DNA of 64,000 nucleotides from Alphaproteobacteria bacterium (lineage in GTDB: Bacteria; Pseudomonadota; Alphaproteobacteria; M2410): NCBI GenBank assembly GCA_006226305.1, contig SBHG01000127.1, forward strand, positions 1,367 to 65,366, in the 5' to 3' direction. The position numbers and the translations under genes are program-made. The notes under the pieces are model-generated. The model worked only from the letters and a program-made list of their open reading frames with translations. It did not search any database and was not told the origin of the DNA. Every line of letters begins with the position of its first letter. The first letter of the stretch is position 1. Positions 1,228-52,485 of the stretch are shown in pieces.

Positions 1228-1235
1228 ATGGTTAA
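1228..1235 (-). promoter_or_regulatory. TTAACCAT octamer (CtrA half-site / SciP-type motif)
   Basis: Plus strand reads atggttaa. Intergenic, about 60-80 nt upstream of the minus-strand hypothetical gene. Confidence 0.35.
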
Positions 1236-1298
1236 GTGGTAAAGATCAAGGATAGCCTTGATTTTCGCATTACAAGCGGTGGCAATTGGGTGACACCC

Positions 1299-2066
1299 TT
1301 ACGGGTTTTTCCACCATTCCTTTTCAGACCAATCTGGACTTAGAGTTTTTCCTTTGGCCTTGCCGCCCCATTCCTTGATGGCTTTGCGATATTTTTTGTC
1401 GGACGAAAAGTTTTCGTGCGGCTCAAAGTCTTCAATCTTGGCGTCAACAATTTTGCCACCTGACTTGGGCAAAACTTTCTTGAAGGACCCGTCGGGGGCA
1501 ATGAGCGGGATCGGCCGGTTCCACCGAGAGAAGACACGGCGCATGGCGGCAGACTGATCCTTCATAGCATCTTCGTCAGCTTCATCCCGTTTGAAGACAT
1601 ATTTATAGGAGGCCAGAAACTCGTCGATATAGGTCTGCTCGACAATTTGCAGATTGGAAATGACCCAGCAGCGATCTTCAAAGATCCAATAGTAGGCAAG
1701 GCCTACCAGATCGCCTTCCTTAGTAAAGTAAGGAAAGAAAGGAAAGGCTCGGCAAGCCATAGTGCGGTTGTGTCGTTCGCAGTGAGCGGCACCTTTGCAC
1801 TCAATGGCGCAGGTGGTATCGGCCAGCTCTTCGACAATCTTGCGAGAGGCGGCGTCCACCGGTTTGTATTTGCGCCATAGGTCTGTACGTTTTTTGAGCA
1901 GCTTCCATTCGCTTTTCTCAACCACCGGAATGGCATTGTCCGCCGTGCAGCATACCGGTTCGCCGCCGTTGAGCGGCGCGCAGATGCGGCCACAATCATA
2001 TTTTTCTGAAATCGCCGACTCAAAGTTTTTGAAAACATGGTCGAAGTGTTTGGGCTTCATACTCAT
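1299..2066 (-). CDS. Cys-rich protein, YkgJ/UPF0153-like putative Zn/Fe-chelating domain
   Basis: ORF 1299..2138. Cys clusters CGRICAPLNGGEPVCC and CAIECKGAAHCERHNRTMACRAFPFFP. The start is moved to ATG 2066 (MSMKPKH) because an intrinsic terminator occupies 2089..2126. Confidence 0.55.
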   Translation of the reverse strand: MSMKPKHFDHVFKNFESAISEKYDCGRICAPLNGGEPVCCTADNAIPVVEKSEWKLLKKRTDLWRKYKPVDAASRKIVEELADTTCAIECKGAAHCERHNRTMACRAFPFFPYFTKEGDLVGLAYYWIFEDRCWVISNLQIVEQTYIDEFLASYKYVFKRDEADEDAMKDQSAAMRRVFSRWNRPIPLIAPDGSFKKVLPKSGGKIVDAKIEDFEPHENFSSDKKYRKAIKEWGGKAKGKTLSPDWSEKEWWKNP

Positions 2067-2088
2067 TGGGGAAATATCACTCGCGCGC

Positions 2089-2126
2089 AAAAAAGGGGCC
2101 TCGTGCTGGCAATAACACGAGGCCCC
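2089..2126 (-). terminator. rho-independent terminator of the S8 autotransporter gene
   Basis: Perfect 11-bp stem ggggcctcgtg / cacgaggcccc (2095-2105 / 2116-2126) with a 10-nt loop. The plus-strand A6 at 2089-2094 is a U-tract on the minus strand. Confidence 0.7.
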
Positions 2127-2153
2127 TTGAGAAGGCAAATTTGATTTCGCGCC

Positions 2154-4523
2154 CTAAAAGGTCCGCTTCATGTGGAGGAAGAGACTGGTCACAGGATCTG
2201 CTTCAGCCACATGGCCTGGCTCGATCTGATGCAGCAGATTGGTCTGCAGATCCCAGTCGCCGGTCAGGCGCGTGGTGTAGGCCATTTCCACATCAATTTC
2301 TCGGCCAGAGGGGCTGAGGTTAAGCACCTCGGAGGCAAAATCCGCTTCAAGGCGCTTATAGCTCCACGAAACGGGGGTTTCGAGCACGACCTCGCCCGTT
2401 TCCACATATAAGGGCTGAGCAATGGCAAAAGACAGGCGATCGCCCCGCTGCATGAGACCGGTCTTGCTGAGCGACAGCTCGCCGCTTGATGTCACCAGAT
2501 CGGAGGCACCGGCAAACATCGAGGTCTGACCACCTTCAACCTGGGTCAGACCGCCGCGAAGACCAATATTGAGCGCCAGCCCCTGTCCAAGCTGCCAGCT
2601 GCTGGCCAAACCGAGATAAACGGTTTGCGCTTCCTGGCCGAAGTCGAGCGCGCCGGAACTGCGGGTACCGAGGATCATGTTTTCCTCGCGCACATAGCCG
2701 GCCTCAATCTGCCAGCTTGATGCATTTGCGCTGCGCGACACTTGCGCGACGACAGCTGACTTGCGGGCTGGCGCCAGATTTGTCGGCAGAACCTGAGAGG
2801 TTTCGCTGGCAATATCGACTGTGCCGACCCCCAGGGCCAGACGTATTTTCTTACCGAGATCTTGCGAGAGCGCTACCCGGCGCGCTTCACCTCGTCCCGT
2901 CAGATAGGCGTTGTGGCCTGTAGCGTGAGAGATCGTCGCGTCGCTATGGGCGGTCGTGAAGGCCTCATCCGTAAAGCCCAGATTTTCGGTCAGGCTGTCG
3001 GCAAAAGTTGAGTAAAGGGACGTAGCCGTCCCCAGATCCGACTTCCAGCTCATGCGCATGGACTTATATCCCAGCTGCCCTCCATCTTCGGTTAAGGGCT
3101 GGCCGTTCTCATCGTAATAACGTCCGGTGTCCTCTTTGGTCACGGCGACCTTCATGGTCTGACCTTGGCCCAGCGGCAATTCAGCTGAATTGAAATTACG
3201 CTTGGCCTCCATAAGGCCGAGCAGGTCAGGGGCCGCATTAAAGGAAAACGTACGGTGGGTGAGATCGGTTCTGTAGCCGCGCAGATAGGCGTCAGAAAAA
3301 ATCGTATGGGTCAGAAGGTCTGATCGATCAAAGGCATCGCCAAAGGCGGCTCCCGACACCAGACCTGTTTGATTGACCGGTACGAGGGTTACCCCTTGGG
3401 TGGTTTGCACGGAGATGGATGTCACCCCCTGGGCGGAGAAAGCCGCTCCGACATCGAGAAAGCCCTGGCCATAGGTTGAGTCAATCCCGGGAGCGCCCAG
3501 ATCCACCGCTGTGGTGAAAAGAAGATTGACCACCTGGGCGGCTGACAGATGGGGAAAAGCGTCAATCAGAAGCGCCGCCGCTCCGGCAATGTGCGGCGCC
3601 GCGAAGGAGGTGCCGGAAACAAGGTAGAGCACATAGGCGTTACTGGCCTCATCCCACAAAGAAACAATGACGTCTTCGCCAGGGGCGGTCAGAAAGGCCT
3701 CCTGGTAGACCGCCACAGATCCGGCAGGGTTGGAGAAGGATGACAAGACCAACAGATTGTTCACCGAACCGGCAATGATCACCTGCCCCGGACCGGCGGC
3801 ATCGATCGCGTCCAGAGCGGACTGCTCCGGCATAATGGCGCCATTTTCACCCTCATTGCCCGCGGAGACCACGATAATGACCCCTGCGGCCACCGCATTG
3901 GCGATGGCATCCATCAGCACTTGCAGACTTGGATCGGGTCCGCCAAGGGAGATGTTGATGACATCAGCACCATTGGCCACCGCATAGTTGATGGCGGCTG
4001 CGATGTCTGTATCGTAAAAAGAACACCCGTCCACGGAGGCGCAGGTTCCCGGATCATCCGTACGCAGGGCCATGATCTGGGCGTCAAAAGCAACGCCATG
4101 GGTGTAGGAGTTGTTTTTGGCGCCGGCGATGATTTGCGAGACCATGGTGCCATGGCCATCAATATCGTCCAGATCATTGCGGAAGGTGAACATGTCCTTG
4201 CTGGCGGCATCAAGTTGGCCGATCAGATCTGGGTGCTGCAGGTCAGCGCCGGAATCGATCACCGCAACAGTTACCCCGGTGCCCGTATAGCCCGCATTGT
4301 AAGCGTGGATGGCGTCAATGGCATCCAGGCCCCAGTTACGGCGGTACTCGGCGGTATTATAGTTCGTGGTGGTGCCGCCGCCGCCAGAAGAGCCGCCGCC
4401 GCCCGTAGAGCCACCGCTGCCGGATGGGGTTCCACCACCACCGCCGCCGCCACAGGCGGTCAAAGCCAGCGCCAAAGTGAGCACGCTTGTGCTGCGAATT
4501 AGATTTTTCTTGATATTTTTCAA
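2154..4523 (-). CDS. subtilisin-like (S8) serine protease autotransporter lipoprotein (NalP/SphB1-type architecture)
   Basis: Catalytic triad contexts VAVIDSGAD, DGHGTMVSQ and SGTSFAAPHIAG. Lipobox LALTAC is followed by a poly-Gly/Ser linker. C-terminal beta-domain ends in ...KRTF. The probable start is TTG 4523 (MKNIKKNLIR...) with GGGGA 8 nt upstream; the ORF track starts at 4562. Confidence 0.85.
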   Translation of the reverse strand: MKNIKKNLIRSTSVLTLALALTACGGGGGGGTPSGSGGSTGGGGSSGGGGTTTNYNTAEYRRNWGLDAIDAIHAYNAGYTGTGVTVAVIDSGADLQHPDLIGQLDAASKDMFTFRNDLDDIDGHGTMVSQIIAGAKNNSYTHGVAFDAQIMALRTDDPGTCASVDGCSFYDTDIAAAINYAVANGADVINISLGGPDPSLQVLMDAIANAVAAGVIIVVSAGNEGENGAIMPEQSALDAIDAAGPGQVIIAGSVNNLLVLSSFSNPAGSVAVYQEAFLTAPGEDVIVSLWDEASNAYVLYLVSGTSFAAPHIAGAAALLIDAFPHLSAAQVVNLLFTTAVDLGAPGIDSTYGQGFLDVGAAFSAQGVTSISVQTTQGVTLVPVNQTGLVSGAAFGDAFDRSDLLTHTIFSDAYLRGYRTDLTHRTFSFNAAPDLLGLMEAKRNFNSAELPLGQGQTMKVAVTKEDTGRYYDENGQPLTEDGGQLGYKSMRMSWKSDLGTATSLYSTFADSLTENLGFTDEAFTTAHSDATISHATGHNAYLTGRGEARRVALSQDLGKKIRLALGVGTVDIASETSQVLPTNLAPARKSAVVAQVSRSANASSWQIEAGYVREENMILGTRSSGALDFGQEAQTVYLGLASSWQLGQGLALNIGLRGGLTQVEGGQTSMFAGASDLVTSSGELSLSKTGLMQRGDRLSFAIAQPLYVETGEVVLETPVSWSYKRLEADFASEVLNLSPSGREIDVEMAYTTRLTGDWDLQTNLLHQIEPGHVAEADPVTSLFLHMKRTF

Positions 4524-4649: not shown

Positions 4650-4657
4650 ATGGTTAA
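4650..4657 (-). promoter_or_regulatory. TTAACCAT octamer (CtrA half-site / SciP-type motif)
   Basis: Plus strand reads atggttaa. About 127 nt upstream of the S8 autotransporter start, in the same orientation. Confidence 0.35.
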
Positions 4658-4895
4658 TCAAAATTGCCCGACGTTGTGCCCGGGGCACCACAGGCAGGAA
4701 AAGGGCAGCCTGTGACAACACAAGAGAACGAATGGGGCTCAATCTGGTCCCTGGCCACAGACCCGGTTTTCAAAATGACTTTCCCGCGCCGATTTCTTAC
4801 TTTTGCCCGCATTGCCCCTTATATTGGGGCCGCGTTTGGCCGATTCGTTTGCGAAAATCGGCCCAAGTCGTTGGTAACAAGGGGAGTTGTCGTCC

Positions 4896-5714
4896 ATGAG
4901 ATCTGGCGTTGTCATTTGCGGCCTTGCCGCCAAATTCGCCCTTTCGAGTGTGGTTATGGCAAATGACTGGCCGGAGGATCCAGCGGAAAAAGGAGCCGCC
5001 ATCGCCCAGGCCACCAAGAATATGGATCTGGGCTTTCAGGACAGTCAGGCCACCATGCATATGGTGCTGACCAATGCCCGAGGCGATGAGAGCACACGAG
5101 AACTTCGCATGATGACCCTTGAGCGCAGGGGCGAGGATGAAGGCAATTGGTCCTTGATCGTTTTTGACCACCCCCGGGACATCGAAGGCACGGCGCTGCT
5201 CACTCATGCGCGGATCCTGGAAGCGGACGATCAATGGATGTATCTGCCCAAACTCGGGCGCGTGAAACGCATTTCTTCCGCAAATAAGGCAGGCCCCTTT
5301 ATGGGCAGTGAATTTGCCTTTGAAGATTTTACCGCGCAGGAGCCCGGTAAATTTGCCCACACCTGGTTGCGGGACGAGCCCTGCCCCGCGCCTCTTGAGA
5401 CCGTCACCTGTCATGTGACAGAGCGGCGACCGCTTTACGAACGCTCCGGCTATACCCGGCAGGTGGTATGGAGTGATGCGGTGGATCTGCAGCCGCGCCA
5501 GATTGACTATTACGACCGCAAGGACGCCTTGCTCAAAACCCTGTCGCTGACCGCCTATACGCAATACCTTGATCAATACTGGCGCGCGAAGGACCTTTTT
5601 ATGGTCAATCATGTGACCGGTAAAAAAACGCGGCTGGCCTGGGAGGATTACACTTTCCAGACAGGCCTGGGCGAAAAGGATTTTGACAAATCCTCTCTGG
5701 AACACGCGCGTTAG
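4896..5714 (+). CDS. outer-membrane lipoprotein-sorting (LolA-like) family protein
   Basis: Signal peptide. Segment WMYLPKLGRVKRISSANKAGPFMGSEFAFEDF is typical of the LolA-like family. GGGGAG lies 10 nt before ATG 4896. Confidence 0.75.
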   Translation: MRSGVVICGLAAKFALSSVVMANDWPEDPAEKGAAIAQATKNMDLGFQDSQATMHMVLTNARGDESTRELRMMTLERRGEDEGNWSLIVFDHPRDIEGTALLTHARILEADDQWMYLPKLGRVKRISSANKAGPFMGSEFAFEDFTAQEPGKFAHTWLRDEPCPAPLETVTCHVTERRPLYERSGYTRQVVWSDAVDLQPRQIDYYDRKDALLKTLSLTAYTQYLDQYWRAKDLFMVNHVTGKKTRLAWEDYTFQTGLGEKDFDKSSLEHAR

Positions 5715-7276: not shown

Positions 7277-7573
7277 ATGAAAATGCGTCTTGTATCTGTT
7301 TTACTTATCTCTGGCCTTGTTGCGACCTCTGCCTTTACTCCGGCCATAGCCTCTGACCGTACCGATGCGGTTAATGCCTGCAAAACTTCTATTGAGGAAA
7401 AGATCGAGGGTGAAGATCTGAAAATCACACTCGGCCGTGTCAAAGCGGTTCGCGATGATGCCCGCTACAAATTTCGAGTGAAATATACCAATGGCGAAGG
7501 GGAGCGCGCGGCGGTCAATGCCGAATGTCTGGCCAGCCGCGATGGTGAAGTTATCAGTCTGGAGATTCTCTAA
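7277..7573 (+). CDS. small secreted PepSY-like protein
   Basis: MKMRLVSVLLISGLVATSAFTPAIA signal peptide. The mature part (...ARYKFRVKYTNGEGERAAVNAECLASRDGEVISLEI) resembles the PepSY fold pattern. This is a by-eye call only. Confidence 0.45.
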   Translation: MKMRLVSVLLISGLVATSAFTPAIASDRTDAVNACKTSIEEKIEGEDLKITLGRVKAVRDDARYKFRVKYTNGEGERAAVNAECLASRDGEVISLEIL

Positions 7574-7609
7574 GCTTGCAGGCTGATCTGAAATTAGAAG
7601 GGGCACTCT

Positions 7610-8413
7610 TTGTCCGTACTTGAACCCTCTCTTATTCAACCCAGCGCAGCTCCCTTTGGCGGGGAGCTGCGTTATTGGCGCCGGTTGCGCGGTCTTTCGC
7701 AAATGGAGCTCGCCAACAAAGCGGCCACGACCCCGCGCCATGTTTCCTTTATGGAGACCGGTCGCTCGCGTCCCAGCGGGCAGATGGTGTTGCGACTGGT
7801 TGAAGCGCTGGATGTGCCGCCGGCAGATCGCAATGACATGCTGGTGGCGGCCGGATTTGAACCGATTTATGAATCCCCCGGCATGGAAGACCATGACCGG
7901 GCGGCCTATGAACGGGTCTTCCGACAAATGCTCCAGGCCCATGAGCCCTATCCAGCCCTTCTGCTCAATCGCTGGTATGACGTCATTGTCAAAAATGATG
8001 CCGCTCAGCGGTTTTTGGCAGGGGGCGCTTCGAATGAACCCACCAATATCATCGACGTTATTTTTGCCCGGGATACTTTTCGGGGCATGGTGCGTAACTG
8101 GACTCATTGCGCCTGGACCATTTTGCATGAGCTTCGACGGGAGGTGATCGCCGTTCCGCGGGACAAGCGCCTGCACCGGTTGTTGCTGGTGGCCGAAAGC
8201 GCCATGGCGGATATCCAGCCGCCGGTTTGGGGCCGCGAAGACGAAATGGAACATCATGCGATTTATCTGGTCGAGGGGGAGGCTGTGCACACGGTGGTGA
8301 CCATGACCAAAGCCTATAATTTCGACCCGAGCTGCCCAGATCAGCTTCGGGTCATGAGCATGTTCCCCAGGGACGATGCGGCAGAGCGTTTTTTCCGTAA
8401 ACTGGCGGAGTAA
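7610..8413 (+). CDS. XRE-family HTH regulator with MmyB-like ligand-binding domain
   Basis: LRGLSQMELANKAATTPRHVSFMETGRSRPSGQMVLRL is the HTH typical of MmyB-like regulators, followed by about 190 aa C-terminal domain. TTG start with GGGG 7 nt upstream. Confidence 0.8.
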   Translation: MSVLEPSLIQPSAAPFGGELRYWRRLRGLSQMELANKAATTPRHVSFMETGRSRPSGQMVLRLVEALDVPPADRNDMLVAAGFEPIYESPGMEDHDRAAYERVFRQMLQAHEPYPALLLNRWYDVIVKNDAAQRFLAGGASNEPTNIIDVIFARDTFRGMVRNWTHCAWTILHELRREVIAVPRDKRLHRLLLVAESAMADIQPPVWGREDEMEHHAIYLVEGEAVHTVVTMTKAYNFDPSCPDQLRVMSMFPRDDAAERFFRKLAE

Positions 8414-11251: not shown

Positions 11252-11307
11252 CTCCAATTACCTCAGACATTAACGATCGGGTCAAAATTGGTCTCGATCA
11301 TCTTCTA

Positions 11308-11323
11308 TGCAAGCACAATACCA
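11308..11323 (-). promoter_or_regulatory. sigma-54-type -24/-12 promoter candidate
   Basis: Minus strand reads TGGTATtgtgcTTGCA, with exact GG-N10-GC spacing and a perfect TTGCA. About 55 nt upstream of the A-T-SGNH start. Confidence 0.45.
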
Positions 11324-11539
11324 GACCTGGGGCTCCAATCTGTCAGAATTTGGTCTGGGCGGTAGATCCGCGCGGTTTTACGCGCGATCAGATTCCATAA
11401 TACTCTATCCAAGAGGTCACCGATCTATCAAAATCCGGATCATTTCCTGACGAACTAATCATTTGAGAAAGATTTGATGCTAGGGTAGCAACATACTGGT
11501 TAACTCGTTGATGATCCTACTGATGGTCATGACCGCCCC

Positions 11540-12622
11540 ATGCAAACAAAAACTATTTCCGAAACTCAGTCTGCCAGCGCGCTAACACCTTTGCCACCTT
11601 TGGCAGAGCTTAGCGAGCGCTGGCAGAAACTGTCTTTGCAATCAGCAGACAATTTCTTTGCGACATGGGCCTGGGTGTCTGCCTGGCTTGATCCTTCAGA
11701 TAGCAACTATCGACTTTTCTCCATAAAAAGCGATGCAGGTGATGACCTGGCACTCGCCATCCTGTCGAAGGATCCTGATGATGGCTCGCTTTGGCTTAAT
11801 GCGCCTGCCAGTTCTGCACACCGTGTGATCTTTTGCGAATACGGCGGCCTTTTACACAGCCCCAAATTGACGAATTTTCCTCTTCACATCTTGACAGACC
11901 ATCTGTCGCAACAAACATTGCATATCAGCGGCTCACGCCTGCCGTTCGACCAACTTGAGCGGGTGTCCGATCGGCGTGCCCTCGGTCGCCAGAAACGCTC
12001 GTCTTTCTTCGCAAACCTTCAAATCATCCGACAGGCTGAGGGGGGGTATGACGCCCTCTTGAGCCGCAATACCCGCCAACAACTTGCTCGGGCGCAACGG
12101 ATTGAGGAGACCTTTGGCGAAATCTCGTTTCAGGTCTCCAAGACTGGCGTCGAGGCCAATACTGCGCTGAAAATGCTGATTTCTCTTCAGCGCTCATCAT
12201 TTGCTGTTCGGGGAAAGGAAAGCGCCTTCGACTCTTCCTTCCTTGGCCAGTTTGCGTCTGCGCTTATCAATTCACAAGCCAATGATGGCCACGTTGAGCT
12301 CTTTTCCCTCTACAATAGCGACGAATGTCTTGGTATCCTCTTTAACCTTGTTCAAGGATCAACAGTTGCTAACTACCAGAGCGGCTTTGCACTCAGGCAG
12401 GACCCGAAATCAAAAATTGGTTATCTGGTGCACAAAGCAGCGATCCAACACTACACACAGATGGGATTTGAGAAATATTCTTTTCTTGCCGGGGATGCAC
12501 AGTACAAACAAAGCATGTCGACGGATACTGAGATGCTTCATTGGGCTCGCCTTGAGCGCCCCTCTGCACTCAATTGGACGGAAAATACCGTGCGCCGTTT
12601 AGCTGGACGCCTCGTCACATGA
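11540..12622 (+). CDS. CelD/BcsL-type FemAB-like GNAT-fold protein
   Basis: About 360 aa. C-terminal YSFLAGDAQYKQSMSTD resembles the CelD-like acetyltransferase-fold family. Its stop overlaps the next gene (ATGA). Confidence 0.65.
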   Translation: MQTKTISETQSASALTPLPPLAELSERWQKLSLQSADNFFATWAWVSAWLDPSDSNYRLFSIKSDAGDDLALAILSKDPDDGSLWLNAPASSAHRVIFCEYGGLLHSPKLTNFPLHILTDHLSQQTLHISGSRLPFDQLERVSDRRALGRQKRSSFFANLQIIRQAEGGYDALLSRNTRQQLARAQRIEETFGEISFQVSKTGVEANTALKMLISLQRSSFAVRGKESAFDSSFLGQFASALINSQANDGHVELFSLYNSDECLGILFNLVQGSTVANYQSGFALRQDPKSKIGYLVHKAAIQHYTQMGFEKYSFLAGDAQYKQSMSTDTEMLHWARLERPSALNWTENTVRRLAGRLVT

Positions 12623-13722
12623 AGATCCTCTATCATCACAGAGTGGCGGCCAGGGATGGCATGGATGTTCACATAACAGAACTGGTCCGCGCCTTTCGTG
12701 ACCTAGGACATGACATGCTCATGGTGGGCCCTGACCGCGGAAGCGATACGGATTTTGGACGAAGCGGCGCAGCTGTCTCCCGTGTCCGCCAATTTTTACC
12801 TAGAGTAATTAGTGAAGCATTAGAAATTGTTTATGACCGCCTTGCCTTTCGGCGTCTGGAGCGCGCTTATTTGCAGTTTCAGCCGGATATTCTCTATGAG
12901 AGGCACAATCTCTTTTTGACCGCCGGCAAACGCCTGCATGAAAAATATGGTATACCCTATTTGCTGGAAGTGAATTCACCCTTGGCAGCAGAGCGAGAGG
13001 CTCATGGCGGACTCGCCCTCAAGCGATTTGCCACGGCACAGGAAGCGGCCGTTTGGCGCTCGGCGACGCACCTATTCCCGGTAAGTGGTGTTCTCTCCAA
13101 AATCCTACAGGCTGCAGATGTCGACCCCAACCGGATTACTGTCGTTCACAATGCTGTCAATCCGCAGATGTTTCACGAAGGTGTCGATGGCAGCGCCGTG
13201 CGTGCGCAATACGGGCTTGTTGAAACTGATGTTGTGCTCGGGTTCACCGGATTTATCCGACCCTGGCATGGACTTGACCGGGTCATTGATGCTCTGGCGA
13301 CCTCGATTGTGCCGACAAACACAAAACTGTTCATCGTTGGAGACGGCCCTCACCGCTCCGCTCTTGAACAGCAGGCTCTTGCCCTCGGCGTTCAGGATCG
13401 GGTTACCTTCGCCGGGTTAGTTTCACGGCGGGATATGCCAAGCTTTATCGCCGCCTTCGATATTGCCCTGCAGCCAGCAGTGACACCTTATGCGTCACCT
13501 TTGAAACTCTTTGAATATATGGCTCTGGGTAAGGCTATCATTGCGCCGGACCAGGAGAACATTCGGGAAATTTTGGACGATGCAGAGGGCGTTTTTTATT
13601 CAAAAGATTCTTCTGACCTTGCTCTCCTGATCTCCCAGGCAAGCCATTGTGAATATAAAGGTCCTGTCCGGCGCTGGTCAGAGAACGTACATCAAATACT
13701 TCAAAGCCTTGTAGCGCAATGA
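12619..13722 (+). CDS. glycosyltransferase family 4
   Basis: MKILYHHR... N-terminus. GT4-type C-terminal half (FIVGDGP, VTPYASPLKLFEYMALGKAIIAP). ATGA overlaps at both ends. Confidence 0.85.
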   Translation: MKILYHHRVAARDGMDVHITELVRAFRDLGHDMLMVGPDRGSDTDFGRSGAAVSRVRQFLPRVISEALEIVYDRLAFRRLERAYLQFQPDILYERHNLFLTAGKRLHEKYGIPYLLEVNSPLAAEREAHGGLALKRFATAQEAAVWRSATHLFPVSGVLSKILQAADVDPNRITVVHNAVNPQMFHEGVDGSAVRAQYGLVETDVVLGFTGFIRPWHGLDRVIDALATSIVPTNTKLFIVGDGPHRSALEQQALALGVQDRVTFAGLVSRRDMPSFIAAFDIALQPAVTPYASPLKLFEYMALGKAIIAPDQENIREILDDAEGVFYSKDSSDLALLISQASHCEYKGPVRRWSENVHQILQSLVAQ

Positions 13723-14993
13723 ACCTGCGTAAGAAGATACTCAATACCGTTCGACGATGGGATGACCACCTTCATGAGGCCTGGGGGCCTTGCCGGATTT
13801 TGTTTGTGATCTCCAATGAAATCGGACTTGCCAGCCAATTGCCAGTTGCTCGGATCCTGGCAAAAAGCCCACAATTCTCGGTCCGCTTTGCTTTTGACAG
13901 CGAAGAATCGAAATTGAAAGGAATTGGCTCAGGTGAGCAGGACTTCATAGAAAAAAGAAAGGTCAATCGAAGGCTCGCCACTTTTAGAAAGTGGCATTAT
14001 GTCTTTCATACCGATGTCAATCGTTTTTATTGTCGGCGCAATGCCGTCCACGCCCTTCTTCCCCATGGGTCTGCTTTTGGCAACACACCCAAAAGTGAAG
14101 ATCGCTCCCTGATGAAACGAGATTACCGCACTTACGCGGTCGCCCAGCCGCAGATAAACCTCAATTTGGCGGTTTCGAGAGCTTCGATTGACTTTTCATT
14201 TCAGATCGCGGCAGAGATAATGTCTCAACGTAACAAGCTGCATTTTGCGGCGGGCTCTCCCAAAACCGATCAGATCTTTCAAAGACGAAATGCGCCTGAT
14301 TCAGATCGGAGGGTCCAGTTCCTGGCAGAGATGGGACTTTCGCCAGACGACCACATCATATTGATTACATCGCATTGGACCGAAAATTCCCTGCTGCGAA
14401 CCCTCGGTCTTGACTTTGTAAGGTCAATTGCCACAGCCTTTCCCAATTACAAGATCATTCTGTTTGGGCATAGTATCCTATGGGATAAAACCAGACGGGA
14501 CCTTGGATCGAAGATACTTGAGATGCGTCGCCAATCCAGATCACTTTTGGATGAATTTTCGAACATTCGAGTATATCGTAACCATTTGAATGCTTCACAA
14601 GTAATAGATATAGCCGAATTAGTAATCGTGGATTATAGCTCAATTATCGTCGAGTCATGCGCATGGGACAAACCTCTAATTAGATTGGTCACACCACAAA
14701 TTCAGTTTGAAAATCAAATTTTGGCGCAGATTTTTGACGATGCAATGATCAACTTCGATACGGTCGAGTCCTGTATTGAAGCTATAAATTCCTATTTGTT
14801 CAATGGGGATAATAAGAAGCAGGCGCGCAAAGTCCTAGTAGATTACTTTCTTGCAAATCAGGGTACTTCAGCAATTTCAATAGCTAACATTGTAATGAAT
14901 GCAGGAAAGGTGTCGGGGATGAATTCACCAGGTTGGAAACGCCTTACAGAAATGTCAATAAGGTACCATCCGAATGCTGGGAGTAATATTTGA
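13719..14993 (+). CDS. putative TagB/TagF-like CDP-glycerol (polyol-phosphate) transferase
   Basis: By-eye matches to TagF family blocks: GSPKTD (cf. GYPRND), IILITSHWTE (cf. ILYAPTWR) and VIVDYSSIIVESCAWDKPLI (cf. LITDYSSV..KP). AT-rich gene. Confidence 0.45.
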   Translation: MNLRKKILNTVRRWDDHLHEAWGPCRILFVISNEIGLASQLPVARILAKSPQFSVRFAFDSEESKLKGIGSGEQDFIEKRKVNRRLATFRKWHYVFHTDVNRFYCRRNAVHALLPHGSAFGNTPKSEDRSLMKRDYRTYAVAQPQINLNLAVSRASIDFSFQIAAEIMSQRNKLHFAAGSPKTDQIFQRRNAPDSDRRVQFLAEMGLSPDDHIILITSHWTENSLLRTLGLDFVRSIATAFPNYKIILFGHSILWDKTRRDLGSKILEMRRQSRSLLDEFSNIRVYRNHLNASQVIDIAELVIVDYSSIIVESCAWDKPLIRLVTPQIQFENQILAQIFDDAMINFDTVESCIEAINSYLFNGDNKKQARKVLVDYFLANQGTSAISIANIVMNAGKVSGMNSPGWKRLTEMSIRYHPNAGSNI

Positions 14994-15003
14994 CCGATTT
15001 AGG

Positions 15004-16026
15004 TCATGCCTTTGACCCACCAATTTCCTCTGCCGATTTCCTCACCAAGGGGAATAATGATGGCGACAAACAAGCAATCCAATATTTCAATGTCGTGCGA
15101 AGCGGAACTGGTTCGGTTAATTGCCGATAGAGATCTCGAACCTGCAATTGCAACCTTTCATCAAAGGCGCGATTGATCGCCTGTATCAGTCTCAGGTTTC
15201 TTGTATGGCGAGCCACTCTTAGTTGATCCGAATCAAGGTTCATGTTGGCTTGAACAAAGTCGATAATTTCGATCTCGCCCAGCAAGAGCAATCTTTGGTC
15301 TGCCGAGTCATTTCCGGCATGTTTTCTGATCCCGACCAACGGCTTTGCGAGCGCGGCGACCATGCCCGCATTCAGACACCTTAGGGTAAACTCCCAGTCT
15401 TCTGCCTTGACCCCGTTCAAGGCTTCATTGAAACCACCGATGTCCTCAACAAATACCCTGGATAAGACAGACGCGGATGGGAAGATGGGCTGAAATTGAA
15501 AATTCGCACTCATGAGGTCTCCGCCCAAAACCCACACGTCACCGTCTTTGAATTGGACTATTCGTTCCCAATACTCCTTTGGCGCTTTTGAGAATTTTGT
15601 CGTTTCATCCCAGACACCCTCGATCACATGTCTAAAATTTGTAAAGAGCAGGTCAACTTCCGGGTGACCTACCAGTGCCTTAGCGACTTCCTCAAGATAT
15701 GTTTCACTCCAAAGATCATCACTGTCACACAGGGCAATCCAGTCCCCACGAGCCGCACCAATTCCGGCATTTCTGGCGTGCTGCACACCTTTGTTTTCCG
15801 TACGAAGAATCTTCAGAAATGGGTGATCCTTGGCATAGGCCAGGGCAATTTCATGAGTGTTGTCCGTTGATCCATCGTCAACAACAATGACCTCCCTTGG
15901 GAGGGCTGTCTGATGGAGGATCGATTCCAGCGTTTCACCAAGAAGGTTCCCCCTGTTGTAGGCTGGAATGACGACAGAAACAGAAATCCTCTGGTCATTT
16001 TTCTCTGTCCGGTCCGCTTCGGTCAT
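15004..16026 (-). CDS. glycosyltransferase family 2
   Basis: VSVVIPAYNRGNLLGETLESILHQT...VIVVDDGSTDNT. ATG 16026 shares one base with the upstream stop (TAATG), with GGAGG upstream. Confidence 0.85.
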   Translation of the reverse strand: MTEADRTEKNDQRISVSVVIPAYNRGNLLGETLESILHQTALPREVIVVDDGSTDNTHEIALAYAKDHPFLKILRTENKGVQHARNAGIGAARGDWIALCDSDDLWSETYLEEVAKALVGHPEVDLLFTNFRHVIEGVWDETTKFSKAPKEYWERIVQFKDGDVWVLGGDLMSANFQFQPIFPSASVLSRVFVEDIGGFNEALNGVKAEDWEFTLRCLNAGMVAALAKPLVGIRKHAGNDSADQRLLLLGEIEIIDFVQANMNLDSDQLRVARHTRNLRLIQAINRAFDERLQLQVRDLYRQLTEPVPLRTTLKYWIACLSPSLFPLVRKSAEEIGGSKA

Positions 16027-18245: not shown

Positions 18246-18406
18246 GGATTGAACCCCGAAAGGGAGCCCGTTAATCGGCGACAAAATGCCGAAATTTAGA
18301 TGAAATTAACCAAAAGAATGCACATGATTGCAGGCTAATGTTTCAATGGCTTCATTTCTATTAACATCAGGCAAAATAGAGTTCCATTGGAGATTTTGTC
18401 CTCGAC

Positions 18407-18422
18407 CGGAATTGGACTTGCC
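18407..18422 (+). promoter_or_regulatory. sigma-54-type -24/-12 promoter candidate
   Basis: cGGAATtggacTTGCc with exact GG-N10-GC spacing. About 60 nt upstream of the Wzx start. Confidence 0.4.
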
Positions 18423-18480
18423 AAGAATTTGCTACCTTATCGGGCTAGCATGTTACACAGCTTCGTGAGAAAGAGTTGTC

Positions 18481-19995: not shown

Positions 19996-20060
19996 TGGCG
20001 CTCAACATCTCTGTCTATCGAGACCAATTTCCTGAAGATTCAAAGTATGGATGATTTTAA

Positions 20061-20963: not shown

Positions 20964-20987
20964 ATCTAACGAACAGAATAACTTCCA

Positions 20988-21947: not shown

Positions 21948-22245
21948 AACGGAAAATTCTCGCTTCTTTGTTGTTAGAGGGTATCATTTTTGATCTAAAT
22001 ACAAAAAAACTCACTTGAGTAAAACAAGGCCAATTTTGTTAATTGTTGTCGATATATATTTCTAGATATTCTCACTGCTTGATCACTGATAATATGATGA
22101 TGACATATTTGACCCCGTATGCTGCGTCTCTTCTGTAGAATCTTGTTGTCTCCGTTCTAAACCCATTGGATCGAATGCGATCCAACGGAGCAAACGAAAT
22201 CAAACGATCATGATAATTTGTTAGTCTCCTATCGCGAGGTATGTT

Positions 22246-23553: not shown

Positions 23554-23647
23554 CGTCTTTCATTTTGGATATACCAGTAGATTACCGACCCAATCCCAAT
23601 GAGCGAGAATAAGAATAACAAGCCACTCATATCAATTTTGCCCTTTA

Positions 23648-38174: not shown

Positions 38175-38405
38175 GATTCATAAATCCAGCTTCGGGATAT
38201 GTCGTTTTGATGAAAGTTACCCATGCCCCTGAACTTAAAGGGGGCCCACACCAATTATCCTAAACTCAGTCAAGAACGTTGCAGCATTCTTGAGATCATC
38301 ATAGCAGCATTTTGCCCCATTGGAACCACCTCGGAGCGGCAAAAACCCAGCAGTGTTGCGGATTTGACCCCTTGTTGCAGCTTGAACCCGGTTTTTTGCA
38401 TAAGT

Positions 38406-38439
38406 CGTTAACCTTTCGGCCACGGGTTTATGGTTAACG
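38406..38439. promoter_or_regulatory. 8-bp perfect inverted repeat CGTTAACC-N18-GGTTAACG in a divergent promoter region
   Basis: cgttaacc at 38406-38413 and ggttaacg at 38432-38439. The right arm contains the exact TTAACCAT complement (38430-38437). Confidence 0.3.
38430..38437 (-). promoter_or_regulatory. TTAACCAT octamer (CtrA half-site / SciP-type motif)
   Basis: Plus strand reads atggttaa followed by c, so the minus strand reads GTTAACCAT. 35 nt upstream of the GT4 ATG at 38473. Confidence 0.35.
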
Positions 38440-38472: not shown

Positions 38473-39678
38473 ATGCGCATCTTAACCTTTTCCACCCTCT
38501 ATCCGAATGCCGCCCAGCCGGTGCACGGGATTTTTGTTGAAAATCGCCTTCGGCATCTCATGGCGGACTGCGGCGTGGAGGCTGTGGTGGTCGCGCCGGT
38601 TCCCTGGTTTCCTTTCAAGTCTGAGCGTTTTAAGACTTATGGCAAATTTGCCCGGGTTCCCTTTAAAGAAGAGCGCCACGGCATTACGGTTTATCACCCC
38701 CGGTATGTTCATCTGCCAAAGGTCGGGATGCATCTGGCGCCCCGATCCATTTACTTAAGATGTCGGCCTTTGATAGCCCGGCTTCTGGATAAGGATGGCC
38801 CGTTTGATCTGATTGATGCGCATTATTTCTACCCGGACGGTGTCGCGGCAGCGATGCTGGCGCGTCATTTTGATCTGCCCCTGACGATTACCGCGCGCGG
38901 AACAGATATCAATCTGATTCCGGAATACCCCGGACCGCGACGCCAGATCCTTAAGGCGGCCGATACCGCAGGTCATCTGATCACCGTTTGCGATGCCCTG
39001 CGCGACCGACTGATAGAGCTTGGGGTCGCACCGCAAAAGATTACCGCGCTGCGCAACGGTGTTGATCTTGACCATTTTCATCCGGGAGGGCGTGAGGAAA
39101 CCCGCGCCAAGCTTGGCCTGACACGTACGACCCTTCTCTCGGTTGGTCATCTCATTGAACGTAAGGGTCATCATCTGGTCATCGAATGTCTTAAGGCGTT
39201 GCCCGATTGCGATCTTCTGATTGCCGGTGACGGGGAGGAGCGCCGCGCGCTTGAGCATTTTGCCGAGCGGCTGCATCTTCAGGACCGGGTCAGGTTTCTC
39301 GGTCAGGTCCCGCATGAGGACTTGCAAAGTATTTACGCGGCGTCGGATGTGCTGATCCTGGCGTCCAGTCGCGAAGGATGGCCGAATGTGCTTTTGGAGG
39401 CCATGGCCTGCGGCACCCCTGTCGTGGCAACCGATGTCTGGGGCTCTGGCGAAGTTGTGCGCTCGCCCATCGCCGGGCGGCTTGCGGCGGCGCGCACCAG
39501 CCATTCCTTAACAGAGTCTTTACAAGACCTTCTCGCCCAATATCCAGACCGGTCGGAGGTGCGTCAATACGCGGAGGGTTTTAGTTGGGAGGCCACCTCA
39601 CGCGGACAATTTGACATCTTTAACCGACTGATCGCTCCGTCTGCAGATTCAAGACGTCATAAAAACGCGTTCACTTAA
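38473..39678 (+). CDS. glycosyltransferase family 4
   Basis: MRILTFSTLYPN... N-terminus. C-terminal SSREGWPNVLLEAMACGTPVVATDVWG. GGAG lies 4 nt before the ATG. Confidence 0.85.
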   Translation: MRILTFSTLYPNAAQPVHGIFVENRLRHLMADCGVEAVVVAPVPWFPFKSERFKTYGKFARVPFKEERHGITVYHPRYVHLPKVGMHLAPRSIYLRCRPLIARLLDKDGPFDLIDAHYFYPDGVAAAMLARHFDLPLTITARGTDINLIPEYPGPRRQILKAADTAGHLITVCDALRDRLIELGVAPQKITALRNGVDLDHFHPGGREETRAKLGLTRTTLLSVGHLIERKGHHLVIECLKALPDCDLLIAGDGEERRALEHFAERLHLQDRVRFLGQVPHEDLQSIYAASDVLILASSREGWPNVLLEAMACGTPVVATDVWGSGEVVRSPIAGRLAAARTSHSLTESLQDLLAQYPDRSEVRQYAEGFSWEATSRGQFDIFNRLIAPSADSRRHKNAFT

Positions 39679-39720
39679 AGCTTTGTTAACTGGCGCGGGG
39701 CACTATCAGGTCAGATCTTG

Positions 39721-39728
39721 TTAACCAT
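39721..39728 (+). promoter_or_regulatory. TTAACCAT octamer (CtrA half-site / SciP-type motif)
   Basis: gTTAACCATg in the gap between convergent genes. It overlaps the ATG at 39727 of a small ORF. Confidence 0.35.
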
Positions 39729-39909
39729 GCTTCTTCAAGACTTAACGCCCATGATGACATTTCCTAAAGCCCATACGGTCGACCCGCAGCGTCTGACCCA
39801 ATTGAAAAAAGGCGAACAGCTTTCGCTTGGCACCAGTGTTTTGATCTGGTGTGGGCTGTCGGTGATTTCCTGGGCGGTCTTTATTTTTGGCGCGCTGCAG
39901 CTCGTTTAA
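39727..39909 (+). CDS. possible small membrane protein (about 50-60 aa, single C-terminal TM helix)
   Basis: ORF 39718..39909. The C-terminus LSLGTSVLIWCGLSVISWAVFIFGALQLV is a plausible TM helix. Alternative starts are TTG 39718 and ATG 39748. No homology recognised. The 3' end overlaps the asnB-like stop. Confidence 0.3.
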   Translation: MLLQDLTPMMTFPKAHTVDPQRLTQLKKGEQLSLGTSVLIWCGLSVISWAVFIFGALQLV

Positions 39910-49897: not shown

Positions 49898-49939
49898 TTT
49901 ACTTCACCTTGAAAGGAGACAGGCTCCCTACTCCCACTG

Positions 49940-51532: not shown

Positions 51533-51568
51533 GACCCTTTACCCTTAAGACCTTGAGATCACTGCTCC

Positions 51569-52198
51569 TTAGAACCGTGACTCAGGAATAATCAGAACAT
51601 CACCTGGGTGAAGATCCACATTGGCGCCCACATCGCCGGAGCGCAAAAGATCCGCCAGACGGACGCGGTAGACTTGTTCTTCCTCACCCATCTTGCGAAT
51701 GATGACGGCGCGGTTGCCGTCCGCATAGTCGGTAAGGCCGCCCACTTCGATCATAGCGTCCAGCACTGTCATTCCCTTGCGGTAAGGAAGGGCTTGAGGC
51801 CGGGTTGCCTGGCCAACGATCCGGATCTGCTGGCTGAAAGAACCCGTAAAGCCGGTTACGATAATGGTGACCTGCGGATCCTGAATATAGGTCTTCAAGG
51901 TCTCTTCCATTTCTGTCGCCAGCTGTGTCGGCGATTTACCCGCGGCCAGAATGTCCTCAATCAGCGGAATGGAGATACGTCCATCCGGGCGCACCGGTAC
52001 GGTGGTCGACAGATCCTGGTTTCGCCAGACAAAAACCTGCAAGGTATCGCCCGGGCCAATCTTGTAATCATCATTGGATTGCTCGATCGGCTGATGGGTT
52101 GGCGCGTCCGGATATTTCGACGCACATGCCGAAACAAAAATTGCGGCCAACAGGCTGAGCGCTAAAGCGCCCTTTTTGATCATCCCCTCGCGTATCAT
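51569..52198 (-). CDS. Wza-like polysaccharide export lipoprotein (PEP-CTERM-locus type)
   Basis: Lipobox IFVSAC. YKIGPGDTLQVFVW is the poly-export motif. AAGGAG lies upstream of GTG 52201 / ATG 52198; the ORF track starts at TTG 52243. Confidence 0.85.
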   Translation of the reverse strand: MIREGMIKKGALALSLLAAIFVSACASKYPDAPTHQPIEQSNDDYKIGPGDTLQVFVWRNQDLSTTVPVRPDGRISIPLIEDILAAGKSPTQLATEMEETLKTYIQDPQVTIIVTGFTGSFSQQIRIVGQATRPQALPYRKGMTVLDAMIEVGGLTDYADGNRAVIIRKMGEEEQVYRVRLADLLRSGDVGANVDLHPGDVLIIPESRF

Positions 52199-52387
52199 CA
52201 CGATGTTCACTCCTTTGCGATTAAAGATCGACCCTGATTTCAAGGTGCGATCCCTCTTATGTGTCCTGTCCTCTTTTTAAAGGTACTCGGGTACCCGACA
52301 CCAAAAGGCGCCGCCAGGGCACCGATGTCTTCCTTTCGGACAGATATTTGTCTTCTGCTGTTTCTAACCAATTGCTCGCCTACTATA

Positions 52388-52403
52388 TGCAATTTCGATT
52401 CCG
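52388..52403 (-). promoter_or_regulatory. sigma-54-type -24/-12 promoter candidate
   Basis: Minus strand reads cGGAATcgaaaTTGCA with exact GG-N10-GC spacing. About 190 nt upstream of the export-gene start, at the head of the seven-gene export/assembly operon. Confidence 0.45.
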
Positions 52404-52477
52404 AAATCATGTGTCACGTCACATTTTCTTTCAGGTCGGGGTGGAGGGCGGCGAATTGGGCCCTTTCCGGACCGCAG

Positions 52478-52485
52478 TTAACCAT
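52478..52485 (+). promoter_or_regulatory. TTAACCAT octamer (CtrA half-site / SciP-type motif)
   Basis: gTTAACCATa. About 80 nt upstream (relative to the minus strand) of the sigma-54-type element at 52388-52403. Confidence 0.35.

What the first reader, a model, noticed from the sequence alone, without database searches (positions are those of the whole stretch)
1228..52485. Five exact TTAACCAT octamers, every one in a non-coding gap
TTAACCAT is the octamer described in Caulobacter as the CtrA half-site and SciP-associated motif, (G/A)TTAACCAT. Reading both strands by eye, I found exact copies at five positions and none inside a confident coding region:
- 1228-1235 (-)
- 4650-4657 (-)
- 38430-38437 (-)
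- 39721-39728 (+)
- 52478-52485 (+)

Four of the five carry the preferred G or A on the 5' side.

A rough expectation for this AT-rich 8-mer on both strands of 64 kb at about 57% GC is about one copy (0.215^6 x 0.285^2 x 128,000). Non-coding DNA is only a few percent of the window.

The copies sit upstream of the S8 autotransporter, in the divergent priming-transferase/GT4 promoter region, about 80 nt upstream of the sigma-54-type element of the export operon, upstream of a hypothetical gene, and in a convergent gap.

Seven-of-eight variants are also found in or next to non-coding gaps: TTAACGAT at 11270 and 56014, TTAACCAA at 18306, TTAACCTT at 38408 and 38482 (the latter just inside the 38473 GT4 coding start), and TTAACCAG (minus) at 11498.

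This suggests cell-cycle or developmental (CtrA-type) input into EPS and surface-protein genes.
Basis: partly seen in the sequence, partly recalled or inferred. Interest (0 to 1): 0.6.

Follow-up and report, generated by a model that had tools for sequence, protein, structure and literature searches.

The report
Conserved CtrA-type boxes in EPS locus
Five exact copies of the DNA word TTAACCAT, the known binding word of the alphaproteobacterial master regulator CtrA, all lie between genes in a surface-polysaccharide region of an uncultured alphaproteobacterium. Three of them are kept in related bacteria, so they are most likely real regulator binding sites of a familiar kind rather than chance.

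Summary
TTAACCAT occurs exactly five times, at the stated coordinates, and never inside a gene. It ties for the commonest 8-mer in the window's 4.5 kb of intergenic DNA (5 seen, 0.13-0.33 expected, P about 1e-6 to 2e-5). It is the only 8-mer with five or more copies that are all intergenic.

New evidence:
- The window's only two full TTAA-N7-TTAA boxes lie 46-53 nt from two of the octamers.
- In three related uncultured lineages (55-85% protein identity), the octamer-plus-full-box pairs at 1228/1168 and 39721/39675 survive in otherwise diverged spacers.
- The 38430 site keeps its TTAA core in all relatives.
- The 52478 site is replaced by a full box in one relative.
- The 4650 site is absent from the one relative available.

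Homologue names and GANTC depletion place the organism in the Alphaproteobacteria, near the Rhodospirillales.

The best-supported targets are two small lineage-specific genes, a 136-aa orphan and a newly delimited 52-aa membrane protein, plus the GT4/priming-transferase control region. The S8 protease and the EPS export operon are less well supported.

Verdict: predicted CtrA-type regulon members, a new member of a known kind.

The parts
1228..1235 (-). TTAACCAT octamer inside a 23-nt invariant block (1221-1243, TTTACCACTTAACCATAAAACCA). It lies 81 nt upstream of the ATG of the 136-aa gene and has the same orientation as that gene.
   Evidence: One search gives the exact match. Searches show the block identical in L172 (S8 83% identical) and L173 (S8 55% identical), while the rest of the spacer has diverged.
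1168..1182 (.). Full CtrA-type box TTAATACCCTGTTAA (TTAA-N7-TTAA), which begins 53 nt after the start of the 1228 octamer and ends 20 nt before the ATG at 1147.
   Evidence: one of only two such boxes in the window; conserved as TTAACAGGGTATTAA in L172 and L173; about 0.09 expected in all intergenic DNA.
737..1147 (-). 136-aa orphan protein gene (MTVRTHH...QVLH), the likely direct target of the 1228/1168 boxes.
   Evidence: The start was fixed by alignment with the relatives' called genes. It is 96% and 74% identical in relatives, more conserved than its neighbours. Only 2 clear homologue clusters exist in 1.84 billion representatives. There is no Pfam or NCBIfam hit.
4650..4657 (-). TTAACCAT octamer in the 402-nt divergent region between the S8 protease gene (2154-4484, -) and the LolA-like gene (4887-5714, +). 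It lies 166 nt upstream of the S8 start and has the same orientation as S8.
   Evidence: The S8 start comes from the 776-aa record P0241. The site is not conserved: relative C (L173) has no TTAA box upstream of its S8 gene. In the 83%-identical relative L172 the contig ends inside the S8 gene.
38406..38439 (.). Inverted repeat CGTTAACC-N18-GGTTAACG. Its right arm is the 38430-38437 (-) TTAACCAT octamer. It ends 34 nt upstream of the GT4 ATG (38473), and the octamer lies 331 nt upstream of the priming-transferase start (38099).
   Evidence: One search shows the right arm as ATGATTAAC in relative A, GTGGTTAAT in B and ATGGTTAAT (exact octamer) in C. The 18-nt spacing to the left arm is constant in A and B, and the left arm is lost in C. 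The RNA hairpin reading is weak (z -1.6 to +0.15).
39675..39690 (+). Full CtrA-type box TTAAAGCTTTGTTAAC (TTAA-N7-TTAAC), 76 nt upstream of the small ORF's ATG. In the window it overlaps the GT4 stop codon.
   Evidence: Searches show it exact in relatives A and B and as TTAAACCTTTGTTAAC in C. In the relatives it lies 4-24 nt beyond the GT4 stop, so its conservation is not a coding constraint.
39721..39728 (+). TTAACCAT octamer that starts 46 nt after the start of the full box and 30 nt upstream of the small ORF's ATG. It has the same orientation as the ORF.
   Evidence: Searches show TTGTTAACCAT exact in relatives A and B, at 46-47 nt from the full box. It is absent in C.
39751..39909 (+). Conserved 52-aa single-helix membrane protein gene (MMTFPKAHT...SWAVFIFGALQLV), the likely direct target of the 39675/39721 boxes.
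   Evidence: tblastn finds it only in relatives A, B and C (79%, 91% over the part present, 69%) among the 166 loci then held (L001-L166). Relative B has TTAACCATA, so the ATG inside TTAACCATG (39727) is not the conserved start.
52478..52485 (+). TTAACCAT octamer just after a terminator-like hairpin that follows the HlyD-family gene. It lies 75-97 nt upstream of the sigma-54-type promoter of the EPS export operon and is oriented against that operon.
   Evidence: terminator 52522-52500; the octamer is not conserved. Relative B has a full box, TTAACACTTCATTAAC, at the equivalent place, relative A has only TTGTTAAG, and relative C has nothing.
52388..52403 (-). Sigma-54-type element CGGAATCGAAATTGCA (GG-N10-GC) of the Poly_export/Wzz operon. 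Listed as context, not as a CtrA box.
   Evidence: the GG-N10-GC element and the TTGCAT core are conserved in relatives A, B and C.

Best explanation
The octamers are cis-regulatory binding sites for a CtrA-family response regulator. A SciP-like partner may read the extended (G/A)TTAACCAT(A/G) form. The host is an uncultured alphaproteobacterium near the Rhodospirillales.

Phosphorylated CtrA would bind the TTAA-containing boxes, either full TTAA-N7-TTAA(C) or the ungapped TTAACCAT. Depending on where a box sits relative to the core promoter, binding would activate or repress transcription.

Two promoters carry one full and one ungapped box 46-53 nt apart, and these are the firmest targets: the 136-aa orphan gene (737-1147) and the 52-aa membrane protein gene inside the XrtA/PEP-CTERM locus (39751-39909). 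A third conserved site overlaps the GT4 promoter region in the GT4/priming-transferase divergent spacer. The sites before the S8 protease and the EPS export operon are younger, lineage-specific additions or weaker sites.

Shown: the enrichment, the positions, the conservation and the class of the host. Inferred: the identity of the binding protein, the sign of regulation and the transcription start sites.
For: 1. Five intergenic copies are seen against 0.13-0.33 expected. TTAACCAT ties for the commonest intergenic 8-mer.
2. The word equals the published CtrA half site (PMC3692519; PMC6180460; PMC11527210). With its flanking purines it equals the SciP ChIP motif (PMC4083442).
3. The only two TTAA-N7-TTAA boxes in 64 kb lie 46 and 53 nt from octamers, where about 0.09 are expected in all intergenic DNA.
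4. Phylogenetic footprints: the 23-nt block with the 1228 octamer and the 1168 full box are invariant in lineages whose S8 proteins are 83% and 55% identical. The 39675 full box is kept in all three relatives, with one changed spacer base in relative C. The 39721 octamer is kept in two of the three relatives. The 38430 TTAA core is kept in all three relatives.
5. At 52478 a relative has a full box where the window has the octamer. This is the behaviour expected if both forms serve one protein.
6. The host is alphaproteobacterial. Named homologues are Magnetospira, Telmatospirillum, Caenispirillum, Oceanibacterium, Emcibacter and 'Alphaproteobacteria MAG'.
7. GANTC observed/expected is 0.51 in the window and 0.65 in relatives, against 1.0 in 1.36 Mb of mostly beta/gamma loci. 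GANTC is also 1.7-fold enriched in intergenic DNA. This is the signature described for CcrM-bearing Alphaproteobacteria (PMC3973325).
8. The motif is not a property of XrtA loci in general: 15 copies are seen against about 25 expected in 2.2 Mb of homologous loci from other taxa.
9. AT-rich spacers in the low-GC glycosyltransferase island (18-28 kb, GC 0.33-0.41) carry no copy, so AT-richness alone does not explain the pattern.
Against: Some Rhodospirillales and Pelagibacter lack ctrA (PMC2877005).

There are no binding, expression or TSS data, and no RNA runs hold the locus.

The S8 site (4650) is not conserved, and the 52478 octamer is replaced or lost in the relatives. The 38430 site is part of an inverted repeat with 26-nt TTAA spacing, which is not the canonical direct-repeat geometry.

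Genome-wide enrichment is untested. The extra 8 kb beyond the window in L172 and the right-hand 11 kb of the window have no copy.
Confidence: 0.66

Rival explanations
1. The boxes are operators of a different transcription factor that happens to prefer GTTAAC/TTAACCAT-like words. Candidates are a regulator dedicated to this envelope/EPS region, such as the regulator-like gene at 7301-8290 (an earlier unchecked note, calls it an MmyB-like XRE regulator; no Pfam family hit here), or a regulator encoded elsewhere in the genome.
For: All five copies lie within one 51-kb envelope/polysaccharide region, and none lies in the right-hand 11 kb or in 8 kb beyond the left edge of the window in a relative. 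GTTAAC is palindromic and occurs 7 times in intergenic DNA and 0 times in coding DNA. The 38406-38439 element is an inverted repeat, which is typical of dimeric HTH operators. CtrA presence is unverified.
Against: It would be a coincidence for both published forms of the CtrA site, the ungapped octamer with purine flanks and TTAA-N7-TTAA(C), to be the conserved elements. It would be a further coincidence for them to substitute for each other at 52478. The inverted-repeat left arm is lost in relative C while the octamer is kept. Only 3 of the 5 octamers carry the full GTTAAC.
Confidence: 0.2
2. The repeated word reflects an RNA-level or core-promoter element rather than a regulator site. It could be a -35-like hexamer (TTAACC against TTGACA) or the -35 element of an ECF sigma factor. 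At 38406-38439 it could be a 5'-UTR hairpin.
For: TTAACC differs from TTGACC by one base, and ECF -35 elements contain AAC. The 38406-38439 repeat can form an 8-bp stem, and relative B keeps the pairing through G-U pairs.
Against: No shared -10 or CGT element lies 16-18 nt downstream of the five copies. This is by inspection of the flanks, and the consensus scans find no sigma-70-type promoter at any box. The distance from the octamer to the start codon varies from 25 to 30 nt among relatives. The hairpin is not more stable than shuffles (z -1.6, -0.9, +0.15, -0.5), and pairing is broken in relative A and absent in C. There are no Rfam hits in the window.
Confidence: 0.07
3. The pattern is chance plus composition: an AT-rich word that simply accumulates in AT-richer spacers, and that the reader picked out because it is famous.
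For: Whole-window shuffles reach 5 copies in 1 of 100 trials. TTAA-containing words are generally depleted in coding DNA and enriched in spacers. Two of the five sites lack conservation.
Against: The intergenic-trained Markov expectation is 0.13-0.33 against 5 seen. TTAACCAT ties for top rank among all 8-mers without any prior. The most AT-rich spacers have none. The octamer survives exactly in 5 of 12 site-by-lineage comparisons, inside spacers that are otherwise about half diverged.
Confidence: 0.04

Closest known systems
CtrA binding sites of Caulobacter crescentus and other Alphaproteobacteria (full TTAA-N7-TTAAC; ungapped TTAACCAT)
   Same: The sequence is identical to both published forms. 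The sites lie in promoter spacers. Full and ungapped boxes occur together in one promoter. The host is in the class where the CtrA phosphorelay is 'conserved in most' members (PMC8116508 abstract).
   Different: No binding or expression data exist here, and ctrA has not been verified in this genome. The targets are not the classical ones (flagella, chemotaxis, ccrM, division): they are two lineage-specific small genes and an XrtA/PEP-CTERM polysaccharide locus. One site is arranged as an inverted repeat with 26-nt spacing.
SciP consensus 5'-(G/A)TTAACCAT(A/G)-3' from Caulobacter ChIP-seq (PMC4083442)
   Same: 4 of 5 copies have a purine at -1 and 5 of 5 have a purine at +1. The motif lies close to full CtrA boxes, as that paper describes.
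   Different: Whether this lineage has sciP is unknown. The purine flanks are weak statistically (P about 0.03 and 0.19).
CtrA-pathway control of adhesion and polysaccharide, e.g. the PdhS2/DivK/CtrA pathway and unipolar polysaccharide in Agrobacterium tumefaciens (PMC7003649)
   Same: CtrA boxes upstream of genes tied to the switch between motility and attachment or biofilm, and a polysaccharide as the output.
   Different: There the link runs largely through c-di-GMP enzymes, and the polysaccharide is UPP. Here the boxes sit inside an XrtA/PEP-CTERM exosortase locus that also has its own PrsK/PrsR sigma-54 control.

Membership tests
CtrA regulon cis-element (CtrA box) | Sequence matches TTAA-N7-TTAA(C) or TTAACCAT | tested here: met
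   Five exact octamers and two exact full boxes at 1168 and 39675.
CtrA regulon cis-element (CtrA box) | Located in promoter or intergenic DNA and over-represented there | tested here: met
   5 of 5 octamers and 2 of 2 full boxes are intergenic or at gene edges. Five octamers are seen against 0.13-0.33 expected. This was tested in the window only, because genome-wide counts were not possible.
CtrA regulon cis-element (CtrA box) | Conserved at orthologous promoters in related genomes | tested here: met
   Sites 1228/1168 and 39675/39721 are conserved. Site 38430 keeps its core. Site 52478 is replaced by a full box in one relative. Site 4650 is not conserved. So the feature is met for three of the five octamers.
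CtrA regulon cis-element (CtrA box) | Host is an alphaproteobacterium | tested here: met
   The named nearest homologues are all Alphaproteobacteria. GANTC depletion is typical of CcrM-bearing Alphaproteobacteria.
CtrA regulon cis-element (CtrA box) | Host genome encodes CtrA with the CckA-ChpT phosphorelay | not testable with these tools
The window itself has no ctrA. Some Rhodospirillales lack it.
CtrA regulon cis-element (CtrA box) | CtrA~P binds the site, and expression depends on CtrA | not testable with these tools
   This needs EMSA, footprinting, ChIP or reporters. No RNA runs hold the locus.
SciP-associated motif | Extended consensus (G/A)TTAACCAT(A/G) | tested here: met
   The -1 base is a purine in 4 of 5 copies and the +1 base in 5 of 5. 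The motif definition is from PMC4083442.
SciP-associated motif | sciP gene present | not testable with these tools
Intrinsic control element of XrtA/PEP-CTERM loci (e.g. a PrsR upstream activating site) | Recurs in homologous XrtA loci of other taxa | tested here: not met
   15 copies are seen against about 25 expected in about 2.2 Mb of homologous loci. The four further copies are the window's own sequence in L001 and L002.
Sigma-70 or ECF core promoter element | A partner -10 element at fixed spacing downstream | tested here: not met
   There is no common -10 or CGT element 16-18 nt downstream (flanks). The scans find no consensus promoter at any box.

The most novel reading that the evidence does not exclude
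In this uncultured alphaproteobacterial lineage a CtrA-type developmental regulator has been wired directly into an XrtA/PEP-CTERM exosortase polysaccharide locus, alongside the locus's own PrsK/PrsR sigma-54 control. The wiring would run partly through a previously unannotated, lineage-specific 52-aa membrane protein between the GT4 and asnB-like genes, and through a highly conserved 136-aa orphan next to an S8 autotransporter. These two small proteins would then be new cell-cycle- or development-gated modulators of exosortase-dependent surface assembly.
Probability: 0.25. Interest if true: 0.5.

Novelty: new member of a known kind. Interest (0 to 1): 0.3.

Why it matters
If confirmed, the sites extend the CtrA regulon to an exosortase (XrtA/PEP-CTERM) exopolysaccharide system. 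That system's regulation is otherwise attributed to PrsK/PrsR and sigma-54. The lineage is known only from sediment metagenomes.

The work also pinpoints two small conserved genes of unknown function as the most probable direct targets, which gives concrete handles for study. It is a useful regulon prediction and annotation improvement, not a new mechanism.

Tried and rejected
2. I tried to walk beyond the window by exact-protein look-up of edge genes. This failed three times because my guessed start codons did not match the records.
3. The genome-contig scan with the asnB-like protein and the metagenome scan with GT4 gave no close relative (best 57% and 60%). The loci were still useful as negative controls.
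4. Laying contigs of other runs to look for population variation gave depth that was too low and fragmentary.
5. No RNA-seq runs hold the locus.
6. The Rfam scan of the window gave no hit.
7. The RNA-hairpin reading of the 38406-38439 repeat fails: it is no more stable than shuffles and is not preserved.
8. The sigma-70/ECF promoter-element reading fails: there is no partner element.
9. The IHF-site reading (WATCAANNNNTTR) was rejected by inspection, because no match overlaps the octamers.
10. The structure prediction for the 136-aa orphan had a mean pLDDT of 46.5, too poor to search with. Its two weak matches to large proteins (P0363, P0364) carry no Pfam domain at the matched stretch, and their only Pfam hits have no significant stretch.
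Full report
OBSERVATION

An exact search finds TTAACCAT five times in the window: 1228(-), 4650(-), 38430(-), 39721(+) and 52478(+). There are no other copies. Dinucleotide-preserving shuffles of the whole window give 1.23 copies on average, and 1 shuffle in 100 reaches five. The window has 53.4% G+C, not about 57%.

I built a gene map from long ORFs checked with Pfam and NCBIfam. Several starts were refined from database protein records and relatives' gene calls. About 4.5 kb (7.0%) is intergenic, and all five copies lie there.

Markov models of order 0-3 trained on the intergenic DNA itself expect 0.13-0.33 copies, giving P(>=5) between 3e-7 and 2e-5. About one copy is expected in coding DNA. 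The absence of coding copies is therefore unremarkable (P about 0.3). The signal is the intergenic excess.

With no prior motif in mind, a count of all 8-mers puts TTAACCAT joint first in intergenic DNA. It is the only word with at least five copies that are all intergenic. The most AT-rich spacers, in the low-GC glycosyltransferase island at 18-28 kb (GC 0.33-0.41), have no copy, so composition alone does not explain the pattern.

The 5' neighbour is a purine in 4 of 5 copies and the 3' neighbour in 5 of 5.

ADDITIONAL ANATOMY

The window contains only two TTAA-N7-TTAA boxes. One is at 1168-1182 and one is at 39675-39690 (TTAAAGCTTTGTTAAC, the full published consensus with the trailing C). 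They lie 53 and 46 nt from the octamers at 1228 and 39721. Shuffled intergenic DNA gives about 0.09 such boxes.

GTTAAC occurs seven times in intergenic DNA and never in coding DNA. TTAAC is about eight times denser in spacers.

The octamer at 38430 is the right arm of an inverted repeat, CGTTAACC-N18-GGTTAACG (38406-38439).

The octamer at 52478 follows a terminator-like hairpin after the HlyD-family gene. It lies 75-97 nt upstream of a sigma-54-type element at 52388-52403.

No sigma-70-type consensus promoter coincides with any box. No shared -10 or ECF-type partner element follows the octamers (flanks).

LOCUS AND HOST

The region is an XrtA/PEP-CTERM exopolysaccharide locus. It holds exosortase A, PrsK, PrsR, PrsT, the associated ATPase and outer-membrane protein, Wzz, Poly_export, a priming sugar transferase, several glycosyltransferases and an asnB-like amidotransferase. 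On the left it is flanked by an S8 protease gene. On the right it is flanked by a type I secretion pair, bioB, mmcB and a RegB/RegA-like pair.

The sequence comes from a metagenome-assembled genome. The only runs that hold it fully are three small freshwater-sediment metagenomes. No close relative exists among GTDB species representatives (asnB-like protein best 57%, an 'Alphaproteobacteria bacterium' MAG) or in JGI metagenomes (GT4 best 60%).

Every named near homologue is alphaproteobacterial:
- Magnetospira, Telmatospirillum and Alphaproteobacteria MAGs for GT4
- Caenispirillum, Oceanibacterium and Rhizomicrobium for the export protein
- Emcibacter, Luteithermobacter, Sphingomonadales and an 83%-identical 'Alphaproteobacteria bacterium' MAG for the S8 protease

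GANTC, the CcrM target, is depleted. Observed/expected by a maximal-order Markov model is 0.51 in the window, 0.65 in the relatives' loci and 1.0 in 1.36 Mb of mostly beta/gammaproteobacterial loci. GANTC is also 1.7-fold over-represented in spacers. This is the pattern reported for CcrM-bearing Alphaproteobacteria (PMC3973325).

COMPARATIVE TEST

Three related uncultured lineages were recovered through protein searches and exact-protein contig look-ups:
- A: L163, L167 and the NCBI MAG contig L172, at 82-85% protein identity
- B: L164, L168 and L169, at 67-78%
- C: L165, L166, L170, L171 and L173, at 55-75%

Gene order is the same in all. The five sites behave as follows.

1. Site 1228. The 23-nt block TTTACCACTTAACCATAAAACCA and the full box TTAACAGGGTATTAA 53 nt further on are invariant in the window, A and C. 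These are the two longest invariant runs in a spacer that has otherwise diverged from C. The gene they precede starts at the ATG at 1147. It encodes a 136-aa protein that is 96% and 74% identical in A and C, which is better conserved than its neighbours. It has only two clear homologue clusters among 1.84 billion representatives and no family assignment.

2. Site 39721. The full box is exact in A and B and differs by one spacer base in C. In all three relatives it lies beyond the GT4 stop codon, so coding constraint does not explain its conservation. TTGTTAACCAT is exact in A and B at 46-47 nt from the full box, and is missing in C. Directly downstream, all four lineages encode a 52-aa protein (MMTFP...LSLGTSVLIWCGLSV.SWAVFI.GALQLV). 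tblastn finds it in none of the other 150-odd XrtA loci. The 'convergent gap' is therefore the promoter of a small membrane-protein gene, 39751-39909. Relative B reads TTAACCATA, so the ATG inside TTAACCATG is not the start.

3. Site 38430. The octamer is exact in C, is TTAATCAT in A and is TTAACCAC in B. The TTAA core and position are kept in all. The left arm of the inverted repeat is kept in A and B and lost in C. An RNA hairpin reading is not supported.

4. Site 52478. The octamer is not conserved. B has a full box, TTAACACTTCATTAAC, at the equivalent place. A has only TTGTTAAG and C has nothing. The sigma-54-type promoter downstream is conserved in all.

5. Site 4650. C has no TTAA box upstream of its S8 gene, and in L172 (lineage A) the contig ends inside the S8 gene.

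Overall the exact octamer survives in 5 of 12 site-by-lineage comparisons.

As a control, about 2.2 Mb of homologous XrtA loci from other taxa hold 15 copies against about 25 expected. The word is therefore not a feature of the system itself. One other alphaproteobacterial MAG locus (L003) has a single copy in its XrtA/GT divergent spacer.

INTERPRETATION

TTAACCAT is the published ungapped CtrA site, and TTAA-N7-TTAAC is the full site (PMC3692519, PMC6180460, PMC11527210). (G/A)TTAACCAT(A/G) is the motif recovered from SciP ChIP-seq, and it often overlaps CtrA boxes (PMC4083442).

Four lines of evidence point to a CtrA-family regulator:
- the exact match to both published forms
- their pairing in two promoters
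- their conservation, and their substitution for one another, in relatives
- the alphaproteobacterial host

I rate this explanation at about 0.66.

It remains an inference. ctrA is missing from a few alphaproteobacteria, including some Rhodospirillales (PMC2877005). No RNA data exist for the locus, so the sign of regulation and the start sites are unknown.

The main rival is another regulator with a GTTAAC-like operator (about 0.2). A core-promoter or RNA element (about 0.07) and chance (about 0.04) are disfavoured.

The motif, its positions and its non-random placement are right, and the CtrA-type reading is the best one.

The proposed outputs need adjusting. The firm targets are two small lineage-specific genes and the GT4/priming-transferase control region. 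The S8 protease and export-operon sites are not conserved and may be recent or weak.

NOVELTY AND INTEREST

CtrA boxes upstream of envelope, adhesion and polysaccharide genes are familiar, for example in the Agrobacterium PdhS2/CtrA work (PMC7003649). This is a new member of a known kind. Interest is modest at 0.3.

The most novel reading not excluded is dual CtrA plus PrsK/PrsR-sigma-54 control of an exosortase locus through new small proteins. I give it a probability of about 0.25 and an interest of 0.5 if true.

Noticed in passing
window 39751-39909 (+): Unannotated, conserved 52-aa single-helix membrane protein gene between the GT4 and asnB-like genes of the XrtA locus. It is found only in this lineage and its three relatives, and its last 4 nt overlap the asnB-like stop.
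   Followed up: yes
window 737-1147 (-): 136-aa orphan protein next to the S8 protease gene. It is 96% and 74% identical in relatives, far more conserved than its neighbours, yet has only two clear homologue clusters in 1.84 billion representatives and no family. The AlphaFold model was poor (pLDDT 46.5).
   Followed up: partly
window 38272-38291: Palindrome AAGAACGTTGCAGCATTCTT in the GT4/priming-transferase spacer, conserved almost exactly in all three relatives. It is a candidate upstream activating site for PrsR or another regulator.
   Followed up: partly
window 52362-52403 (-): Conserved sigma-54-type promoter (CGGAATCGAAATTGCA, GG-N10-GC) followed by a conserved block GCAATTGGTTAGAA, upstream of the Poly_export/Wzz operon. 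Both are kept in relatives A, B and C.
   Followed up: partly
window 56022-56043: Block ATTTCGTTTATAGGCTGTTAAG (reverse complement CTTAACAGCCTATAAACGAAAT) in the bioB/ABC-exporter divergent spacer is conserved in all relatives. It may be a biotin-regulator operator.
   Followed up: no
whole window: GANTC is strongly depleted: 84 copies are seen against 165 (Markov) or 248 (mononucleotide) expected. It is also 1.7-fold enriched in spacers. Relatives share the depletion, and beta/gamma control loci do not. This fits a CcrM-type methyltransferase in this lineage.
   Followed up: partly
window about 11300-30000: A lower-GC stretch (0.445-0.51 in 4-kb bins, against 0.55-0.59 elsewhere) holds the variable glycosyltransferase, sulfotransferase, Wzy and flippase genes and a 1411-aa ORF. 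It looks like a swapped-in polysaccharide-specificity island inside the conserved XrtA framework.
   Followed up: no
window about 1236: The 41.8-kb Logan contig of run SRR8389942 that carries this locus begins, by coordinate arithmetic, at about window position 1236, next to the conserved box block. The 83%-identical relative L172 (an NCBI MAG) shares a near-identical 60-nt stretch there. If a similar strain lives in the same sample, as the 82-85% relative contigs L163 and L167 from that run suggest, an assembly-graph break at shared sequence is the likely cause.
   Followed up: no
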